Positions 33,080 to 43,488 of a stretch of DNA of 64,000 nucleotides are shown in pieces. The DNA lies in assembly GCF_048403405.1 (NCBI RefSeq), contig NZ_CP183129.1. The stretch is one strand, 5' to 3'. The position numbers and the translations under genes are program-made. How positions within the stretch are numbered: the stretch's first letter is position 1; each line of letters begins with the position of its first letter. Origin of the DNA: Escherichia coli. Lineage in GTDB: Bacteria; Pseudomonadota; Gammaproteobacteria; Enterobacterales; Enterobacteriaceae. The notes under the pieces were generated by a model. That model searched no databases. It was given only the letters and a program-made list of their open reading frames with translations, and was not told where the DNA came from.

Positions 33080-33566
<487 letters not shown>

Positions 33567-33895
33567 TTTGTTCTCCTTAATTATGTAAGGAGTATTTGAT
33601 CATGTATAAGCAATGGAAAACAGCTTTAGGTAATAAGGAATATCTCAATTATTGAATATTTAGTGCGAATTATTTAGTACAAAAAAGCAGCGTTGCGTGA
33701 TCTTTCCCTGCCCTTTATTCATAAACACATGGATATGGTGATCAACGGTGGTCTGATGGAGGCGCAGAGCCTGAGTAATCATGACTGAATTTCAGCCTTC
33801 AGAAGCCAGAAAAATGGCTTTAATACAATCGCAGCCCCGCTTTTCACAACATTATGCTTATAATATGAAAAATATCTTGCCTTGCATCTTTGTGC

Positions 33896-34375
33896 CTACG
33901 GCATTGGATGATCTTTCCCTAACCTTATAGTTTCTTTTAGCCTTTCAAGCCTTAGCAATTCAACCTCGGCTTTAATATAGCCATGTGAGGCAGCCATTTT
34001 CAGCCAATTAATTGCATTATCTAAATTATAATATTTTAAATAGGAATCATCCTCCTCTGAGGATAGAATCATAGCATAATTATATTGCGCTATGATATTT
34101 CCTTGAGATGCAGACCTTGCCAGATATTTAATTTGCTTGGGTATATTAAAGCAAACATATGTATAATATTGATGTAATCGATATGACGCATCACCATCCC
34201 CGCCCTCAGATTTAATATCAAGTTCATATCTTTGATTTTCACTTAAATTAAACGATTCAGATGTTGAGCTTATTTCAATGTTATGGAGCTTAATAGGGGG
34301 GGGGATTTCACCTCCATATGAACAACAAGAGAAAAAGAAAACATTTGCAATCAGAATAAATAAAAAGCACTTCAT
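33896..34375 (-). CDS. Sel1-like repeat protein with N-terminal signal sequence; candidate immunity protein for the adjacent orphan Rhs toxin domain
   Basis: 159-aa ORF with hydrophobic N-terminus (MKCFLFILIANVFFFSCCS) and Sel1-like repeats (..AINWLKMAASHGYIKAEVELL..); starts 13 nt after the orphan Rhs C-terminal reading frame ends, with an SD-like aaaggtgg upstream. Confidence 0.55.
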   Translation of the reverse strand: MKCFLFILIANVFFFSCCSYGGEIPPPIKLHNIEISSTSESFNLSENQRYELDIKSEGGDGDASYRLHQYYTYVCFNIPKQIKYLARSASQGNIIAQYNYAMILSSEEDDSYLKYYNLDNAINWLKMAASHGYIKAEVELLRLERLKETIRLGKDHPMP

Positions 34376-34388
34376 GTTGCCACCTTTG

Positions 34389-35385
34389 TTATTTTATATC
34401 ACTTGGTCTCATAACTTTGCCAGGAGTGGAAGAAATGGGTTGACCTGAAGGTCCAAACGTTATCCAGCGGCCCATATTATTACCAGTTATGACATTATTA
34501 CTTGTGTCAATTGCCGAGATATTATCCGTAAGTCCTGTTTGGATCGTATTAAAAAGAGGAGTATTATTATCCCACGCCATCCATACTTGCCATTGTGTAT
34601 CAGCTCCAGTGACATTTGCATGAAGTGCTCTGGCTAACTTGCTGGCAAAAGATTTATCTCCCTCTCTGGCTGTACCACATGAGAATAATCAAACAGACAT
34701 TCCCTTTTTATAGCGTGGATTAGCTCTGATTCTCTTGGCTAATCCCTCAGCAGTTTCATAGTTTCCATTTTCATCTGTAATAAAACCAGGATATCCATGT
34801 CCTCCAATAGTAAAAACGCCAGGAATATTTATTTTATCTGTTGCAGCATGCAGTGATACATTTCTGCGTATCCCCTCATCATAGAAATTCATATCAGCTA
34901 ATCCAAAAGGGTCTATATACTGAACCGGATTCAACGGATACTCATAAAAATTCCATCCCCCCTTCAGCCCAATCGAATCCTGAGTGATATACCTCCCCTG
35001 CAGCGGGTCATAATAGCGGTGGCGGTTGTAATACAGGCCGGACTCCTCATCATACTGCTGACCCGGCAGGCGGATGAGTTGCTGCAGCTGTTGCGGGTTC
35101 TCTTCATTCAGCAGGTTGCCCCATTCATCGTATTCTGCGCACCATTCTGTTGCCCCTTCCGTGCTGATAAGCACCAGCGGCAGGCCGCGATGGTCGCAGT
35201 GGTACAGGTGGATTTTTCGCGCCGGCGTGTACACCGGGTCCATCTGGTTTTGCATCTGCTTCACCGTCAGGCCGCACGATGCCAGCCAGCGGCGGCTTTC
35301 CTCACTCACCCGGTCAGCCAGGATTTCACTTTCCAGCCGGTCGAGCATCTGCACCGTGCCGGCGGGAATCCCCCACTGTGCATAG
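34389..35385 (-). pseudogene. Orphan Rhs module: about 150 codons of Rhs core 3' end, then an alternative C-terminal toxin domain interrupted by one in-frame TGA
   Basis: Track ORFs 34689..35354 (221 aa, GTG start) and 34389..34580 (63 aa) are in the same frame, separated by a single TGA at 34689-34691 (..[19 protein letters not shown]..). N-terminal part is near-identical to the main Rhs core end ([42 protein letters not shown]); sequence after the DPxGL-type motif is unrelated to the main Rhs C-terminus. Confidence 0.7.
34893..35385. repeat. About 0.49-kb direct repeat of the main rhs 3' core region (39747..40240)
   Basis: Near-identical nucleotide stretch (for example ..ccggttcagtatatagacccttttggattagc.. 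against ..ccggttcagtatatagattcaatgggactggc.., then long runs of identity through ..gtcgagcatctgcacc..); the same sequence is read antisense by track ORFs 35019..35528 and 39940..40434. Confidence 0.8.
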
Positions 35386-35395
35386 GCAACTCACG

Positions 35396-36238
35396 CTATG
35401 AACGCTTCAGCTTATCAATAGCGGAAGTTATAATTTCATTGTCATCAAACTTGTACAACATAGTATCTAAAACAGGAAGTAGCGTTTTATCACCTAATTC
35501 ACCCGCAGCTTCAATGATATCATCATAAACAGTATTTTTTTTTAACTCATCGCATAAAACAGATAAAATCCTTTTATCTTTTCTGTAGGAAAGTCCGATT
35601 ATTGCTTCAATACGGACTTCCTCATTTTTATCCTGAAGCATCTCCACAAAACAATCCCTAATATCACTATTATCATATTTATTGATATTTATTGCAAATG
35701 CGGCCCAGTTTCTGACATCTCCATTTGGATCTTTTAACAGATTAATCAATAGTGGAATTGTTGCTTTATCATTGATAACAGAAATAGCAAATGCTGTAGC
35801 ACGTCTGACATTAGTCGATTTATCAAAAGCAGTAATTTGAGATTGTTCTACTATTTTAGGTGAATAAATTGGGTTTTTCTTGCATCGCTGAGCCGTTGAC
35901 TCGATTGCCGTAGCTCGAACGCAAGCGCTCTTATCATTCAATGCCATATTGTTCAAAATATTAAACACATTATCTTTGCATTTTTTGCAAATTTTTATTT
36001 GCCCGAGTATAAATGCTCCGATATCTCTACGGATATAATTTTTATCAGAGCAGAACTCAATTGCCAATCTAACAGCGTCTTGACCACCTCTTAACTGTAA
36101 TACTCTGGCAGATGAAATCCTTTTCAAGGAATTGTGATCATCAAGTAAGCGAAATAATTCATCATCATTTAGTTTCTTACATTGATTATATAAACCATAC
36201 TCTTTACTTGCCTTTCTTTTCTGGTATGTATTTGACAT
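35396..36238 (-). CDS. HEAT-repeat protein (YibA-like, PBS-lyase HEAT-type repeats)
   Basis: Track ORF trimmed to MSNTYQKRKASKEYG.. (280 aa); repeated ..DxxVRxxAxxALG..-like helical repeats (NDKSACVRATAIES, DKSTNVRRATAFAIS, DPNGDVRNWAAFAIN, DKNEEVRIEAIIGLS). Resembles, from memory, the yibA gene that follows rhsA in K-12. Confidence 0.7.
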   Translation of the reverse strand: MSNTYQKRKASKEYGLYNQCKKLNDDELFRLLDDHNSLKRISSARVLQLRGGQDAVRLAIEFCSDKNYIRRDIGAFILGQIKICKKCKDNVFNILNNMALNDKSACVRATAIESTAQRCKKNPIYSPKIVEQSQITAFDKSTNVRRATAFAISVINDKATIPLLINLLKDPNGDVRNWAAFAININKYDNSDIRDCFVEMLQDKNEEVRIEAIIGLSYRKDKRILSVLCDELKKNTVYDDIIEAAGELGDKTLLPVLDTMLYKFDDNEIITSAIDKLKRS

Positions 36239-36342
36239 TGCAGGAACCTCCATAAAGACTATCTTTTTCTATCGTTTGACTGTCTGGAGTCCTCCACCTA
36301 CTCTGCCATCAGCACACACGATGTTTGTTTATCCTTACATAC

Positions 36343-36570
36343 TTATTTTCCGTGGCCAAAATTTAGAATTCTCCCGTCATTTTTGCCTATTTCTATAATA
36401 AAAACCCTACCAGCAATTTGGTCTGATTCAATGGTGCCTTCAACAATCCAACTTGTTGGTAATTCCATGATTTTGTATGGTTTTTCTTCTTCTGCGGCAT
36501 CATGCCCATAACGATTTTTAACATACATCTCAGCTAATTCCAATGCTATAGCTTTATTTTTACCAAATTT
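36343..36570 (-). pseudogene. N-terminally truncated paralog of the 38207..38554 secreted protein (Rhs-associated immunity-like family)
   Basis: Reading frame opens at a stop at about 36571 and uses a TTG start in the track; ..AIALELAEMYVKNRYGHDAAEEEKPYKIMELPTSWIVEG.. aligns with ..EMALELSYVYIKYIYGKEKAEFQKPYSITDDNNCWKIEG.. of the 115-aa protein but lacks its signal peptide and N-terminal region. Confidence 0.5.
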
Positions 36571-36689
36571 CTAACGGTGTATTTCCCCTCACATTCATAC
36601 TTGCGCATTATAATAATATTATTACACTGCGCCCATGTGTTGTATGTAAAAACAAAGATACAATCACATAGGTTCTGAATAATATTTTC

Positions 36690-37067
36690 TTATACGTTGT
36701 AATGTATTTTGCAAACATTAGACAATCCTTTTCCATTTATTATATCTTTCCCATGATTATCTATTGCTTTAAAATTTTCACCTATTGACCTTGAATTACT
36801 ACAATCACTTCCAGTGAAATCTGAGTTATTCAGAATAGCATTCATCAGAGCCGCATTGTGAAAGACAGCATTTCTAGTTGATGTATGTTGAATCATTACA
36901 TTTCTTAAATGAGTTTTTTCAAATTTCGCCCCATCAAGACAATAACCATTGAGGGTGGCACGATGTAGATTCATCCCGCTAAAATCATATCCAGCAAGAG
37001 TGGTACTATCTATCTCAAGAAATTTATTGGTTATTAAAAATGCGATTCTTATCATCTGTTCCTCCAA
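36690..37067 (-). CDS. Pentapeptide-repeat protein (candidate orphan immunity protein)
   Basis: 125-aa ORF with tandem pentapeptide-type repeats (..LAGYDFSGMNLHRATLNGYCLDGAKFEKTHLRNVMIQHTSTRNAVFHNAALMNAILNNSDFTGSDCSN..); AT-rich. Confidence 0.55.
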   Translation of the reverse strand: MEEQMIRIAFLITNKFLEIDSTTLAGYDFSGMNLHRATLNGYCLDGAKFEKTHLRNVMIQHTSTRNAVFHNAALMNAILNNSDFTGSDCSNSRSIGENFKAIDNHGKDIINGKGLSNVCKIHYNV

Positions 37068-37303
37068 TCATCTAACTCCTGAAAAATTTGAAAACCAGAA
37101 CCTCGCTTAGGCCTGTGTCCATACTACGTGGGTAGGATTATTCTGCGTACTACGCTGTTGTCCCTTACGTGCTGATAAGGGCTGGCAGGTTTCCGGCTTG
37201 CTTCGTTGAGTTCACTACGCTAAAGCTCCGTGTCCACATAACCCAGCTCGGAGGCATGACCTTCTCTGGTTCGTTCCATCTAAAATGTCTATAACTGACA
37301 TGG

Positions 37304-37624
37304 TTATTCAATTATTTTTTCTTTGAGTTTATTCTCAATCCAGCGGTCTTTATACCTGATGAGAATTTGACATTCACCAATATTATCAATGTCACCAACA
37401 TTTGTGTTTCGAATTTGACCAACAGCAACTATAGTTGATTCAAAACATTCAACATTGACTTTATCTGTTATTATTGAAACTATATAATCATCTGGAATGG
37501 AGCCATTAGGTATTATATTAAAGAAAGTAACATCGGTAAATACTAAATAACCATTTTCTAAGTCTTCATTATTATAAAAATTCCATTCTGTTGTACCATA
37601 GGCTATCCTTGAGATTAAATTCAC
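37304..37624 (-). CDS. Hypothetical 106-aa protein in Rhs-associated array (possible orphan immunity gene)
   Basis: ORF only; AT-rich; lies just downstream (minus strand) of a degraded Rhs core fragment; no recognisable motif. Confidence 0.35.
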   Translation of the reverse strand: MNLISRIAYGTTEWNFYNNEDLENGYLVFTDVTFFNIIPNGSIPDDYIVSIITDKVNVECFESTIVAVGQIRNTNVGDIDNIGECQILIRYKDRWIENKLKEKIIE

Positions 37625-37744
37625 CTGAATTCTAATTTGTTTGCTCCATAAATCAAATTCAATTTTTTTATTGGTCGATCACCAAGATATATTCTATCAA
37701 ACATATTACCCTCTATTCTAAAAATACTCAGGCATTCCACACAT

Positions 37745-38010
37745 TATATCAGCCTCATCTTGACTGCTTCCCGTTTCCCGATACGGCGGTGCGGGGAGTC
37801 ATAAAGGTAAGAAATTTCCAGCAGTACGGCGTCCTATTGTTCACGGCGGTAATGCACCAGCCAGTATTGGCTATCGTAGTGATAACCGTGTAATCTGCCG
37901 CCGCATCGCGTATCTAATGTTCATTCTTTTCCATAAACCGTCCGTACACATTGTGATAGTAAAAATACAATACATCTTCGCTGATGCGGTTATTCTGCTG
38001 CATGTGGGAA
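37745..38010 (-). pseudogene. Degraded Rhs core fragment (frameshifted, stop-containing vestige)
   Basis: Minus-strand translation across frames gives ..NNRISEDVLYFYYHNVYGRFMEK.. then, after a frameshift, ..YHYDSQYWLVHYRREQ..ISYLYDSPHRRIGKREAVK, paralleling the main Rhs ..[57 protein letters not shown]. Track ORF 37871..38074 is a frame artefact of this vestige. Confidence 0.55.
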
Positions 38011-38206: not shown

Positions 38207-38554
38207 TTATGAAACACACCTTGGTAAAATATTTGAATCGTCTGAACAGTGGATTATTTTGTGTATTACATCCAACGCTTGCCCATCTTTTTTCGCTATT
38301 AGTATTGTAAAATTTCCTCCTAACGTCTTCGGTTGTTTTCCCTCGATTTTCCAACAATTATTGTCATCTGTAATACTATATGGTTTCTGAAATTCTGCTT
38401 TTTCTTTCCCGTATATATATTTAATATAAACATATGATAATTCCAAAGCCATTTCACGACTATTTACTAAAATTTCCACTGAATTTTCTTTTCCAAATAC
38501 TGAGTGTGATATTGTAAACAATATCATAATAAGTAATATTAGTGAGTTTCTCAT
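38207..38554 (-). CDS. Small secreted protein of an Rhs-associated immunity-like family
   Basis: 115-aa ORF with signal peptide (MRNSLILLIMILFTISHSVFG); paralogous to the truncated ORF at 36343..36570. Confidence 0.5.
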   Translation of the reverse strand: MRNSLILLIMILFTISHSVFGKENSVEILVNSREMALELSYVYIKYIYGKEKAEFQKPYSITDDNNCWKIEGKQPKTLGGNFTILIAKKDGQALDVIHKIIHCSDDSNILPRCVS

Positions 38555-38722: not shown

Positions 38723-39292
38723 TTATTTTTCTTCACTACGAAGCAGTTCATGCTGTACTTTTGTTAAACATTCGTAAGACTCATCTTTGTTCGGGAGATG
38801 TGCTGTCATTCGAGCATAAGTTGGCTTCTCATCTTTAAAATATTTAACCATGATTGAATTATCAAGGACTGCCAACAACTGAGCTGGATCACTGCTCTTT
38901 TTTTGATAGATACCCGCTCTTATATAACTTCTAAACCGATCGCCGAGAAACGCCGTTTTTTCTGCTGTATTTAGCAACTCCTGCAACGTTCCTTTGGTTG
39001 CATGATTTTCATTAAGGCGTAGTGATCCGACGCGAATTAAGAGTCTCGCCCCGCTTGGTGTGAATTTGTTATTTTTACATATACCAAGTTCTGTTTGCCA
39101 ATAATACTCACCTATGTCCTCATTCTGATACCATCTCCACATGGTTTTATTATTTAAGACAGGAAACGCGGAAAAAATAGTACCCTTAGTGAAAATGGTA
39201 AAGCAATCTTGATCTTTAGCTTGTGTTTCGCAATTAGCTATAACACCAAAACTAACGAATATCATCAGCAAAAAGAACAAAGCTCTTTTCAT
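38723..39292 (-). CDS. Candidate cognate immunity protein for the main Rhs C-terminal toxin domain (secreted, signal peptide)
   Basis: 189-aa ORF whose ATG overlaps the rhs TGA (minus-strand ATGA at 39289-39292), typical toxin-immunity translational coupling; N-terminal signal peptide [21 protein letters not shown]-rich. Confidence 0.6.
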
Positions 39293-42200
39293 TTTCTTAT
39301 TCCTCTCGATGTTCTCTGTTTCATTTTAGCTAAAATTTCACCCAAATCATCTATCCCTGCTGTTGCTGGCCCATCGGGTTTATTAATGTCTGGGAATAAA
39401 TAGGGTTCTGCACAAGTATATCCTGGTGGTAATTGAGTTGTTGGCCAAGTTGTCTGTGGCAGGTAATCACTTGCTGTCTTTGTCTCCATCCCTGGATACT
39501 GGGGATCATCCTGCGGCGTACAAGTCAGATTGGGTTTTACCCACTTCCTGCAATACAGTGTGTAATCGTAAGGACTTAATGCTCTGAAGAATGTTTTGAA
39601 AACATTAGGCGCACTACTGGCCTGGTCAATAGGATATGGCAGTCTTAATTGTTTCGCTATGTCTGGCAACTTACTTGGATCGGGCGTAGGCGGTTTGTTG
39701 GGTCTCGCTCCATATCCGCCATTATTTAAGTGTCCATATTTAGATGCCAGTCCCATTGAATCTATATACTGAACCGGATTTAACGGATACTGATAAAAAT
39801 TCCATCCCCCCTTCAGTCCAATCGGATCCTGAGTGATATACCGCCCCTGCAGCGGGTCATAATAGCGGTGGCGGTTGTAATACAGGCCTGACTCCTCATC
39901 ATACTGCTGACCCGGCAGGCGGATGAGCTGCTGCAGCTGGTGCGGGTTATCCTCACTCAGCTGGTTACCCCATTCATCGTATTCTGCGTACCATTCTGTT
40001 GCCCCTTCCGTGCTGACAAGCGCCAGCGGCAGGCCGCGATGGTCGCAGTGGTACAGGTGGATTTTTCGCGCCGGCGTGTACACCGGGTCCATCTGGTTTT
40101 GCATCTGCTCCACCGTCAGGCCGCACGATGCCAGCCAGCGGCGGCTTTCCTCACTCACCCGGTCAGCCAGGATTTCACTTTCCAGCCGGTCGAGCATCTG
40201 CACCAGCACCGGCGGGAACACCACACTGCCACCGTCTTCGCCGCCGGACTGCTGAAGCGCATCCGCCAGGCTGCGGCGCTGCGTTTTCGCCAGCTCACCG
40301 GTGGCGGTTTCGACCCTGATGAGTGGCGTGAAGCTCCCCGGCTGATAAACCGTCTGGATGCGGGTTCTGTCGTTCTGTATCGTGGTCAGCCGGTCGCCGT
40401 CCCAGCCGTACCAGGTCACTTCCGGTTTCCGTGACAGCGACATCCAGCCCGTCAGGTCCCGTTCACGCCGCCACACCCGTTTTGCCACCCTGCGGCCCAG
40501 CGGGTCGTAAAGATAGCGACTTTCGACCAGCGGCTCTGCATATTGTGTCCGCGTGTAGTGCACCAGCCGGTGCTGACTGTCGTAATGGTACCGGTGAGTC
40601 CGCTCATCATCCGTGCGGATAACCCCTTCCGGGATGAGGTCGGTTTTCTCCGTCAGCCTGCCGTGACGGTCATACCGGTAAAGATAGTGCGCGTCACGGG
40701 CGATACGGTTATCCGGCCACATGCTGAGGGTGCTGTCCGGGTGCAGCTCCGGGTCGGGCAGGCGGTTACCTGCCGGGTCTGTGGCATACGGGATGCGGAT
40801 ATCCAGATTCGCTGCCGTGGTGTGGACGCCGGTCAGCCTGCCGGAGTCGCTGTAGCTGTAACTCCGGGTCTGTCGCGGGCTGCTGATGCGGATGAGTTCG
40901 CCGTTGTCGTTCCAGGTGTAATCGCGGTCATACTGCAGGCTGTTCAGGTGCTGGCTCTGTAACTGCCCGGCAGAGGTGTAAGCGGTGGTGAGTTCATAAC
41001 GGCCGAAGCTGCGCAGCGTTTCCCGGTGCAGGCGGTCGCGGGTGAAATCCACCAGCGGTGTGTCGCCGAGTTTCATGCCTGACAGCCAGCCGCTGCCGTA
41101 GGTCAGCCATTCCACGGCGGGCAGGCTGTCCGGTATACAGCGGTTCGCCAGTCCCTGCGCGTTGTACGCATGTCTGGTTTCATGCTGCCAGAGCAGTGCT
41201 TCCGTCTGCGGGTGATGCACCGTCTGGCGCTCACCGGTCAGGCGGCCTTTCTCATCATACCCGTAATGCACCGTCACCCGGTGGCCTTCGCTGAGATGGC
41301 TGATGCCTGTCAGCCAGCCGCGTTCGTCGTACCGCCACTGTTCTGCGGTTTCACCATTCACCGTTCGCTGTGTGATGCGGTCTGCTTCGTCATAGTGCCA
41401 GTGGGTGACCAGCCCCTCATCCTCGCTGCGGATAAGTTTGCCGGTCAGGTCGTGGTGATAACGCTGTGTGCGGCCGTCAAAGCCGGTTTCCTGTATCAGC
41501 CGGTCAAGTACATCGTAACGGAAGGTGGTGTGGCTGCCGTTTTCACTGGTCAGGCGGATGACCCGCCCGGCAGCATCGTATTCCATACTGCGCGTCAGAC
41601 CGCCCTGCGTGGTACGGATGGCCTTTCCCCACGCATCGTACTGTGTCCCGTTTCTGCTGTCGTCCGGGGCAATGACGGCGGTCAGGTCACCGGCGGCGTT
41701 GTATTCATACCGCGTTTCATGGCCCTGCATGTCTTTCACCGCAATTAACTGTCCACGGCTGTCGTATGCGCGGTACTGGCTCAGGCCTTCCTCGCGGTGC
41801 ACCGTCGTCACCTGACCAAAACGGTCATGGTCATAGCGGGTTACATAACCGGAACAGTCGGTAAAGCTCAGCAACTGACCGTAACGGCTCCACGTCATGG
41901 TTTTCCGGCTGCCGGTGGCATCTTCCGTTGCGCAGGGGAAGTCACTGTGTGGATTATCATAACGGTAGCGGGTGATATCGCCGTCAGGGGCGGTTTCCTG
42001 AATCAGACGGCCGGATTCATCATATTTGCGGCGCAACTCCAGCCCGTCAGTCCCGGTGGCTGACGTTAACTGGTTGTGGTGGTTATAGTAAAATGCCGAT
42101 GCCCTGCCATCCGGTGTGGTGATGCGCGTGATGAGTCCCGTCACCACATCCGGGCTGTACTCAGTCGTCCGGCCTGCGGCATCCGTCTGTGCCTTAAGCC

Positions 42201-43488
42201 TGCCCACCGCATCAAACTGACTCTGCGCGACGCTGCCGTCCGCGTGTTCCTTTTTCACCACCCGCTTCAGCCCGCCTTCGCCCTGCGTGTGCAGCACTTC
42301 ACGGCGGTCCAGACTGTCGGTGATGGTGATGCGGTCTTTCTCATACTGATACGTGTAGCTTAAGCCTGCCGGGTTTAGCTGCTCTGTCACCCGCCCGTCG
42401 CTGTCGTAACGGTAACGGATTTCCGGCCGGCCCGCGCGGCGGTGCGCCACCATCCGGCCCCGGTATTTATCATCGTAAGTAAAGCTGCGCACCTGTTTGC
42501 CACTGCGGTCATACACCGCCGCCAGTTCGCCGCGCGGCGTCCAGCCATAGCGTACCAGCGGCGCGGCTGGCAGGTTGTCCGGATATTCCGGGTCGTGCGT
42601 CAGCCACACGGCAGACAGACGGATGCCGTTGTCCCGGCCATATTCGGTGTAACCCGGCAGGGTATCAGGAAAAGCGGACGGTTCCGTCCCGCCGGAAATG
42701 GCCTGCTGCCGGGCCTCTTCTGCCCGCAGCGCCTGCGTGGTCAGTACCAGCCGGAAGTGACGCCCGGCACCATCCGTCACGCCGGTGATTTCGCCGCTGA
42801 ATTCGCCGCCAGCCTCACGGTGGAACGTCTGTGTGCGCCCGAAGCGGTCCACCAGCCCGGTCAGTACCCGGTACGGCGGCAGCGGCGCAGGCAGCACCTC
42901 ATCCGCCTCCGGCACCCGCTCACACCAGCCGAGTACCCACCACGGCCCCTGCGGACTGTTCGTCGCCAGATAACGATGCGGACTTAAGCGGAGTTCTTCC
43001 GGCAGCGCCTGCCAGAGTGCGGCCAGCCGGTGACCTTCATCCAGTTTCAGGACACCGCCACGCACCAGCCAGAGTGATTCGCTGCGGCTGTAACCGTCCT
43101 CACCGGGAAACAGGCGCTCAAAATACAGGCTTCTGCCGCCGTTATCACTGAGTATCAGTGTGTTATCGCGCAGCTGTAAGCGGATATCCGCAGGCATTTT
43201 CCAGCCGGGGCCGAGGCTCCCCACCGGCGCGGGCGTTTTTGTCCGGTAACTGCTGTAGGTGCGGGAGAGGATGAACGGCAGCGGGCCGGGCAGTGCAAGG
43301 TCGGTTTCGCCGGGAAGGACCTTCGCACCGAGCAGCGGATTGACCGGATGGCCGGACGTCACCCCGCCGGGGCACACCGAACAGGCCACACCGGTGGGGG
43401 CACCGATGCGCACCCCGGCTGAACCCTGGACAATGCTACCGCCATACTGCGTCATGTCGCCCTGACGCGCCGCCGGTTTTCCGCTCAT
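39289..43488 (-). CDS. rhsB: Rhs-family polymorphic toxin (PAAR-Rhs core with YD repeats and variable C-terminal toxin domain)
   Basis: 1399-aa ORF; N-terminus [29 protein letters not shown] contains a PAAR motif; GC-rich core with many YD-type repeats; core ends ..[13 protein letters not shown], followed by an about 152-aa AT-rich C-terminal domain ([32 protein letters not shown]). Symbol assigned by position downstream of nikR. Confidence 0.85.

What the first reader, a model, noticed from the sequence alone, without database searches (positions are those of the whole stretch)
37080..37290. About 200-bp GC-richer non-coding stretch between AT-rich immunity-like ORFs
No frame is open across it (all minus-strand frames hit stops), yet its composition is clearly more GC-rich than both flanks and it contains short internal repeats (cctgtgtccatactacgtggg and ccgtgtccacataacccagc) and inverted ends (aaccagaacc and ggttcgttcc). 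It could be a further decayed Rhs or IS remnant, or a structured small RNA.
Basis: seen in the sequence. Interest (0 to 1): 0.3.

Follow-up and report, generated by a model that had tools for sequence, protein, structure and literature searches.

The report
IS3 and Rhs debris scar
The GC-richer 200-bp stretch is non-coding debris in an E. coli Rhs toxin locus: the last 50-60 bases of an IS3 insertion sequence, a 50-base dead piece of Rhs core gene and the trailer of an immunity gene, so it is ordinary gene decay and not a small RNA.

Summary
The compositional observation is real: 48.8% GC against about 29-32% in both neighbouring genes, and no open frame across the stretch. The quoted repeats and inverted ends are at chance level.

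The stretch is a four-piece scar, listed here by rising coordinate (genes run on the minus strand):
- 37052-37090: the last 12 codons and stop of an Rhs C-terminal toxin gene. Its stop overlaps the start of the pentapeptide-repeat immunity gene.
- 37091-37140 (up to 37077-37140): the right end of IS3, on the + strand, 59/62 identical to an intact IS3 copy.
- 37141-37190: an rhsC-type Rhs core fragment, LPALIST*GTTA*YAE, cut by the IS3 end.
- 37191-37303: a 113-bp trailer that follows the DUF6258 immunity gene wherever I examined it (five E. coli loci and E. albertii).

The toxin tail and the IS3 piece meet inside a 14-bp direct microhomology, TCCGGAA(A/C)AATTTG. This fits an IS3 insertion into an orphan rhs, followed by a microhomology deletion that removed the toxin and most of IS3.

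The same scar occurs in 272 of 5,426 complete E. coli genomes. There is no Rfam hit, no excess fold stability, no covariation and no terminator. It is an ordinary product of a known kind of locus, of low interest.

The parts
36690..37055 (-). Pentapeptide-repeat immunity-type gene, shortened to 121 aa from the ATG at 37055. The intact ortholog is 161 aa. NCBI annotation of identical loci calls it a pseudogene.
   Evidence: Pfam PF00805, E = 1.4e-8. The 161-aa ortholog follows a full Rhs gene in strain KOr021. Pseudogene annotation.
37052..37090 (-). Last 12 codons plus stop (QIFQELDDWRNR*) of the Rhs C-terminal toxin gene cognate to the pentapeptide gene. The stop overlaps the immunity start as ATGA.
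   Evidence: Window 37030-37090 aligns with KOr021 (L008), where this is the end of a full RHS core protein ending ...QIFPELDDWGNR*.
37077..37090 (.). Deletion junction, a 14-bp microhomology. The window reads TCCTGAAAAATTTG, the toxin gene TCCGGAAAAATTTG and IS3 orfB TCCGGAACAATTTG. The crossover lies between 37085 and 37090.
   Evidence: The homology to L008 (ends at 37090) and to IS3 (starts at 37077) overlap here. Both alignments are on the + strand, so the two copies were direct repeats.
37091..37140 (+). IS3 right-end remnant: the last codons of transposase orfB (...FENQNLA*) and the right terminal inverted repeat, ending GGGTAGGATTA.
   Evidence: 59/62 identical to an intact IS3 copy (L009) and 90% to the K-12-type IS3 (L003). 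This piece accounts for most of the 5,251 E. coli records matched by the 251-bp query, typically lying under 'IS3-like element IS3 family transposase'.
37141..37190 (-). Decayed Rhs core fragment (LPALIST*GTTA*YAE), the start of an orphan rhs, cut by the IS3 end.
   Evidence: 43 bp at 95.3% to rhsC core genes and 37/44 to the window's own main rhs. The equivalent piece is annotated 'RHS domain-containing protein' in ATCC 8739 and continues into an annotated N-terminally truncated orphan rhs in OkiPb01688 and E. albertii.
37191..37303 (-). 113-bp non-coding trailer of the DUF6258 immunity cassette, 48.7% GC. Its origin beyond that is unknown.
   Evidence: The 164-bp query that contains it is matched over at least 80% of its length in 535 E. 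coli genomes. In every locus I examined it lies directly 3' of a DUF6258 gene and before an Rhs core fragment, and the same holds in E. albertii. It is 85-86% identical between variants against 91% for the gene. Stops in all frames. No plasmid or IS match.
37304..37624 (-). DUF6258 immunity-type gene. The 106-aa remainder is left by a 1-bp loss in a T/A run, which puts the first 27 or so codons (up to about 37705) out of frame.
   Evidence: Pfam PF19772, E = 1.8e-15, covering profile positions 33-103 of 136. Alignment and translation against the 133-aa version.

Best explanation
The stretch is a non-functional scar inside the array of displaced toxin/immunity 'tips' downstream of an E. coli rhs gene. 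Read along the minus strand, the array once ran: DUF6258 immunity gene, its 113-bp trailer, then an orphan rhs (a short core fragment followed by a C-terminal toxin), then the pentapeptide-repeat immunity gene.

An IS3 element inserted into the core fragment just after the codons for ...AEY, with its right end facing the DUF6258 side. A later deletion ran between two directly repeated, near-identical 14-mers, TCCGGAA(A/C)AATTTG. One lies 13 codons before the end of the toxin gene and the other 11 codons before the end of IS3 orfB. That deletion removed the rest of the core fragment, the toxin and all of IS3 except its last 50-64 bp.

What remains is relatively GC-rich because Rhs core DNA and IS3 are far less AT-rich than the imported immunity genes. 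It is not translated as a unit and shows no sign of acting as an RNA. The consequence is a toxin-less, and itself decaying, immunity gene.

Shown: the identity and limits of the four pieces and the microhomology at the junction. Inferred: the order of events, and that one deletion rather than several did the job.
For: - IS3 end. Window 37077-37138 is 59/62 identical to the right end of an intact IS3. It includes the last orfB codons and the terminal repeat, and ends where IS3 ends.
- Rhs fragment. Window 37140-37182 is 95.3% identical to rhsC core. In ATCC 8739, OkiPb01688, CX12 and E. albertii the same position carries an uninterrupted Rhs sequence, [21 protein letters not shown], with no IS3.
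- Toxin tail. Window 37030-37090 matches the 3' end of a full Rhs toxin gene plus the pentapeptide start in KOr021.
- Junction. The two homologies overlap by 14 bp on the same strand, as expected for a deletion between short direct repeats.
- Composition. By piece, GC is 36%, 48%, 54% and 49%, against 29-32% in the flanking genes.
- Spread. The scar is found in 272 of 5,426 complete E. coli genomes, in two sequence variants.
- Decay. The trailer is less conserved than the adjacent gene, at 85% against 91%.
- Framework. Arrays of displaced rhs tips are described in PMC2935791.
Against: - No genome with an intact IS3 at this site was found. None of 5,426 genomes covered 80% or more of a chimeric IS3-plus-scar query, so the intermediate is inferred.
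- In KOr021 the pentapeptide-cognate toxin sits on an Rhs of a different core type (GLPQALISPEGETAWQGEYDEWGN). The deleted DNA may therefore have held more than one module, and more than one event is possible.
- The origin of the 113-bp trailer is unresolved.
- Expression was not measured.
Confidence: 0.85

Rival explanations
1. The stretch encodes a structured small RNA, or a cis-acting RNA element such as a terminator or attenuator, between the two immunity genes.
For: Non-coding, GC-richer than its flanks, and conserved in hundreds of genomes. A 5-bp hairpin followed by UUUUAG sits just after the DUF6258 stop.
Against: - No Rfam family scored better than E = 2.4, and the three weak hits are eukaryotic snoRNA/U6 models.
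- The minimum free energy is no better than shuffles on either strand, with z = +0.66 and -0.20.
- No terminator-like site was found.
- There were 0 compensatory pairs and an unfavourable covariation term in five variants.
- The stretch is assembled from pieces of unrelated origin: IS3, Rhs core and a cassette trailer.
Confidence: 0.03
2. The scar matters as a regulatory region: the Rhs/IS3 junction created a promoter that drives the downstream pentapeptide immunity gene.
For: A sigma-70-like match on the minus strand spans the junction at 37164-37137: GGGACA, 16 nt, AATAAT, 9 of 12 positions. It lies about 80 bp upstream of the ATG at 37055. The IS3-free version of this sequence lacks the AATAAT.
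Against: - This is a consensus match only. The scan found 11 such sites in 1.4 kb of AT-rich DNA against 5.9 +/- 2.6 in shuffles.
- The gene it would drive is truncated and annotated as a pseudogene.
- No expression data are available.
Confidence: 0.07
3. The 113-bp DUF6258 trailer is itself an older, heavily decayed IS3-family end, so that the stretch holds two successive IS ends pointing the same way.
For: A local alignment of the IS3 left end to the minus strand of the trailer (about 37208-37237; GTGGACACG...AGT.AACTC) scored 21, against 14.0 +/- 2.1 in shuffles. Only 7 of 1000 shuffles reached that score.
Against: - The test was post hoc and one of four tried.
- The outer 18 nt, where an IS3-family terminal repeat should be best conserved, do not match.
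- BLAST with 11-nt words found no IS in E. coli genomes or plasmids for this part.
Confidence: 0.08
4. The 48-aa minus-strand ORF (37165-37311), or the 41-aa plus-strand ORF, encodes a small protein.
For: The ORFs exist.
Against: - The 48-aa ORF starts with TTG inside the end of the DUF6258 gene and ends in the dead Rhs fragment.
- Against the ATCC 8739/OkiPb01688 variant, 9 of about 38 codons carry amino-acid changes, and that variant's frame stops earlier.
- The trailer is less conserved than the neighbouring gene.
Confidence: 0.02

Closest known systems
Arrays of displaced ('dissociated', orphan) rhs C-terminal tips with their immunity genes, downstream of E. coli rhs genes (Jackson et al. 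2009, PMC2935791; rhsA-yibA-yibJ-yibG and rhsC-ybfB-ybfO-ybfC of K-12)
   Same: - The locus layout is the same: a main rhs, then successive immunity genes and core-fragment-plus-toxin orphans, ending in an ISAs1 (H-repeat) transposase fragment.
- The 50-bp fragment is the start of such an orphan.
- The 113-bp trailer followed by a core fragment is the standard boundary between two cassettes.
   Different: - Here the orphan is destroyed. It has two stop codons, is cut after 17 codons by IS3, and has lost its toxin except for the last 12 codons.
IS3 (IS3 family insertion sequence of E. coli)
   Same: - The last 50-64 bp match: the orfB C-terminal codons and the right terminal inverted repeat, 95% identical, ending at the IS3 terminus.
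   Different: - There is no transposase gene, no left end and no target duplication.
- It is a solo right-end stub that cannot move.
Orphan immunity genes of polymorphic toxin systems (Imm-NTF2-2, pentapeptide and DUF6258 types)
   Same: - The flanking genes are immunity-type genes without an adjacent intact toxin.
   Different: - Both neighbours are themselves damaged. DUF6258 is frameshifted and the pentapeptide gene is truncated, so protective function is doubtful.

Membership tests
IS3 insertion sequence | Terminal inverted repeat and 3' end of orfB matching IS3 | tested here: met
   59/62 identity over 37077-37138 to an intact IS3 copy. The match ends at the IS3 terminus, GGGTAGGAT(C/T)A.
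IS3 insertion sequence | Transposase orfA/orfB with programmed frameshift | tested here: not met
   Only the last 11 or so codons of orfB remain. To the left of 37077 the sequence is the toxin tail and pentapeptide gene.
IS3 insertion sequence | Second (left) terminal repeat in inverted orientation, and a target-site duplication | tested here: not met
   No left end is present. The weak IRL-like similarity in the trailer lies outside the remnant's outer terminus rather than beyond its interior, and that trailer also exists in IS3-free loci.
Rhs core / orphan rhs (Pfam PF03527 region) | Sequence homology to the conserved Rhs core just upstream of the toxin junction | tested here: met
   41/43 identity to rhsC and 37/44 to the window's main rhs. 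It maps to ...[17 protein letters not shown].
Rhs core / orphan rhs (Pfam PF03527 region) | Open frame continuing through the DPxGL motif into a C-terminal toxin | tested here: not met
   There are two in-frame stops, and IS3 cuts the fragment after AEY.
Structured small RNA (any Rfam family) | Match to a covariance model at or near its gathering score | tested here: not met
   The best hits were E = 2.4-5.4 and 14-17 bits, against gathering scores of 41-44.
Structured small RNA (any Rfam family) | Fold more stable than shuffled sequence, with compensatory changes among homologs | tested here: not met
   z = +0.66 on the minus strand and -0.20 on the plus strand. 0 of 34 predicted pairs showed double changes in five variants (small sample).
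Miniature IS-derived element (MITE) | Terminal inverted repeats and dispersed copies | tested here: not met
   The quoted ends are complementary at 5 of 10 positions. The longest inverted repeat, 7 nt, is equalled in 262 of 500 shuffles. In every locus examined the full-length matches lie in Rhs arrays.

The most novel reading that the evidence does not exclude
The scar may record repeated, selection-driven silencing of an orphan Rhs toxin whose immunity gene was failing. The only two base differences between the 41-bp Rhs fragment and the K-12 rhsC core both create in-frame stop codons (P about 0.002 for random substitutions, post hoc). These were followed by an IS3 insertion and then deletion of the toxin. 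A weaker variant is that the Rhs/IS3 junction now supplies a promoter for the leftover immunity gene.
Probability: 0.08. Interest if true: 0.3.

Novelty: already known. Interest (0 to 1): 0.08.

Why it matters
It matters little in itself. The result explains a compositional oddity as three kinds of familiar debris, and removes a candidate small RNA from the list.

It gives a clean worked example of how Rhs tip arrays decay: an IS insertion, then a deletion at a 14-bp microhomology that leaves an immunity gene without its toxin.

It also flags an unannotated IS3 stub and an Rhs stub that annotation pipelines miss in 272 complete E. coli genomes.

Tried and rejected
- **Rfam scan at a permissive threshold:** only chance-level eukaryotic snoRNA/U6 hits.
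- **Single-sequence folding on both strands and consensus folding of five variants:** no stability or covariation signal.
- **Terminator scan:** none found.
chance level.
- **Search for an intact IS3 at this site with a chimeric IS3-plus-scar query:** no genome among 5,426.
- **Origin of the 113-bp trailer:** BLAST against plasmids at E up to 10 found only one E. coli record. A protein-anchored scan of 100,044 species genomes found the DUF6258 cassette only in E. albertii, with the same trailer and Rhs junction. There is no extension of Rhs core homology into the trailer.
- **IS3 left-end similarity inside the trailer:** 7 of 1000 shuffles reached the score. It was post hoc, so I kept it only as a weak rival.
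- **The apparent extension of an IS3-family plasmid hit 35 bp beyond the IS3 terminus (H5):** the alignment shows that element also ends at GGGTAGGATCA, and the rest is a low-identity extension.
- **DUF6258 literature search:** no papers.

Full report
**Setting**

The window around the finding is an E. coli rhs locus read on the minus strand. In order along that strand it holds:
- a 1,399-aa Rhs gene (39289-43488);
- a YbfC-like ORF (38723-39292);
- an Imm-NTF2-2 gene (38207-38554);
- a DUF6258 gene (37304-37624);
- the finding;
- a pentapeptide-repeat gene (36690-37055);
- another Imm-NTF2-2 gene (36343-36543);
- yibA (35396-36253);
- an orphan rhs with the Pfam RHS domain (34689-35354);
- a Sel1-repeat ORF (33896-34375), called Sel1 from the annotation of an identical locus;
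- an ISAs1/H-repeat transposase fragment (33132-33566).

NCBI annotation of an identical locus in strain FXCREC043 gives the same picture and leaves the finding unannotated. This is the 'array of dissociated tips' described for rhs loci (PMC2935791).

**Observation**

The stretch is 48.8% GC. The pentapeptide gene is 32.3% and the DUF6258 gene 28.7%. All six frames have stops.

The quoted 'repeats' share 12 of 21 positions, and the 'inverted ends' are complementary at 5 of 10. The longest exact direct repeat (8 nt) is equalled in 100 of 500 dinucleotide shuffles, and the longest exact inverted repeat (7 nt) in 262 of 500. The composition and the lack of coding are therefore real, and the repeats are not.

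**What the pieces are**

A BLAST of 37060-37310 against 5,426 complete E. coli genomes split the query. Bases 37077-37146 matched thousands of copies of 'IS3-like element IS3 family transposase'. The whole query was found in only 272 genomes.

*IS3 right end.* Alignment to intact IS3 copies shows that 37077-37138 is 59/62 identical to the right end of IS3 on the + strand. It covers the last orfB codons (...FENQNLA*), and the terminal repeat ends at GGGTAGGATTA, base 37140.

*Rhs core fragment.* Immediately to the right, 37140-37182 is 95.3% identical to rhsC core genes and 37/44 identical to the window's own main rhs. Translated on the minus strand it reads LPALIST*GTTA*YAE, against LPLALISTEG(A/T)T(E/A)W.AEYDEWGN in intact genes.

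In ATCC 8739, CX12, OkiPb01688 and E. albertii the same position carries the uninterrupted Rhs sequence with no IS3. In OkiPb01688 it continues into an annotated N-terminally truncated orphan rhs followed by yibG. IS3 therefore sits inside the 5' core fragment of an orphan rhs.

*DUF6258 trailer.* The rest, 37191-37303, lies directly 3' of a DUF6258 gene and before that core fragment in every locus I examined. The 164-bp query that contains it is matched over at least 80% of its length in 535 E. coli genomes, and the same arrangement holds in E. albertii.
- It has stops in all frames.
- It is 85-86% identical between variants, against 91% for the gene.
- It shows no Rhs homology.
- It has no match among plasmids apart from one E. 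coli record.

I read it as the non-coding 3' end of the DUF6258 cassette. Its deeper origin is unknown.

*Toxin tail.* On the left side, strain KOr021 carries a 161-aa version of the pentapeptide gene directly after a full Rhs gene ending ...QIFPELDDWGNR*, with the stop and the immunity start overlapping as ATGA. The window is homologous to it from the pentapeptide gene up to base 37090. So 37052-37090 is the last 12 codons plus stop (QIFQELDDWRNR*) of that toxin gene.

**The junction**

Homology to the toxin gene ends at 37090 and homology to IS3 begins at 37077, both on the + strand. The shared 14 bases are TCCGGAAAAATTTG in the toxin gene and TCCGGAACAATTTG in IS3 orfB.

The window has the toxin-type A at 37084 and IS3 sequence from 37091, which places the crossover in AATTTG (37085-37090). 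A deletion between these two short direct repeats would remove four things:
- the rest of the toxin;
- the remainder of the core fragment;
- the IS3 left end;
- nearly all of the transposase.

That comes to about 0.66 kb of rhs (taking the KOr021 gene as a guide) plus about 1.2 kb of IS3, if a single module lay between them. It would leave exactly what is seen.

This step is inferred. No genome with a fuller IS3 at this site exists among the 5,426, and the KOr021 toxin is attached to a different core type. The deleted interval could therefore have been longer or the history more complex.

**Is it anything more than a scar?**

- Rfam gave only three chance-level hits.
- Folding energy is no better than shuffles on either strand, with z = +0.66 and -0.20.
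- No terminator-like site was found.
- Consensus folding of five variants gave no compensatory pair and an unfavourable covariation term. The sample is small.
- A sigma-70-like match spans the Rhs/IS3 junction on the minus strand (37164-37137, 9 of 12). Such matches are common in this AT-rich DNA, and the gene downstream is a pseudogene.

I therefore treat the stretch as non-functional debris.

**Minor curiosities**

- *Two nonsense changes.* The Rhs fragment differs from the K-12 rhsC core at two of 41 bases, and both changes create in-frame stops (GAA to TAA, TGG to TAG). Only 6 of 123 possible single substitutions are nonsense, so the chance of both is about 0.002. This was noticed after the fact and depends on the assumed ancestor. 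Both stops are shared by the second variant of the scar.
- *IS3-like similarity in the trailer.* A stretch of the trailer (about 37208-37237) resembles the inner part of the IS3 left end, with 7 of 1000 shuffles reaching its score. The outer terminal bases do not match, and BLAST finds nothing.
- *Mosaic variants.* The 7CC/SW4848 variant is a mosaic of window-like and ATCC 8739-like segments. That pattern suggests exchange between rhs loci.

**Verdict**

The feature is real as a compositional anomaly. It is a composite of an IS3 stub, an Rhs core stub, a toxin-gene tail and an immunity-cassette trailer, present in about 5% of complete E. coli genomes. Interest is low.

Noticed in passing
window 37625-37705 (with 37304-37624): The DUF6258 gene is frameshifted. 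A 1-bp loss in a T/A homopolymer run near 37662 puts the first 27 or so codons (MFDRIYLGDRPIKK...) in another frame relative to the 133-aa version in ATCC 8739. Strain 7CC has a 2-bp difference in the same run.
   Followed up: partly
window 37141-37183, minus strand: Both of the only two base differences from the K-12 rhsC core create in-frame stop codons (P about 0.002 under random substitution, post hoc). Both are shared by the second scar variant (L007, L011).
   Followed up: partly
window 37705-37900: Another GC-richer non-coding patch (43-47% GC) lies upstream of the DUF6258 gene. Homology with OkiPb01688, where a full Rhs toxin gene directly precedes DUF6258, ends around 37775-37780. Beyond that the window, like ATCC 8739 and CX12, carries different sequence. 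This is probably another toxin-gene stub and cassette junction.
   Followed up: no
window 36690-37055: The pentapeptide-repeat gene diverges from the intact 161-aa KOr021 ortholog after about residue 96 (SRSIG.NF) and ends at 121 aa. NCBI annotates it as two pseudogene pieces overlapping a frameshifted NTF2-fold immunity gene (36343-36720).
   Followed up: partly
L007 (strain 7CC) and L011 (SW4848), positions equivalent to window 37100-37700: A second variant of the same scar is a mosaic. The IS3 stub is 100% window-like, the trailer and the 5' half of DUF6258 are ATCC 8739-like, and the 3' half of DUF6258 is window-like. This suggests gene conversion between rhsA-type and rhsC-type loci.
   Followed up: partly
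window 37141-37174 versus L004 2560-2595: DNA just outside an unrelated plasmid IS3-family element's right end resembles the Rhs sequence outside the IS3 stub here (about 70% over 34 bp, shared TCTGCGT). This is probably a chance BLAST extension, though it could reflect an insertion-site preference.
   Followed up: no
window 33132-33800: An ISAs1 (H-repeat) transposase fragment lies at the distal end of the rhs array, as in K-12 rhsA and rhsC loci. The identical locus is also annotated with a small IS630-family fragment.
   Followed up: no
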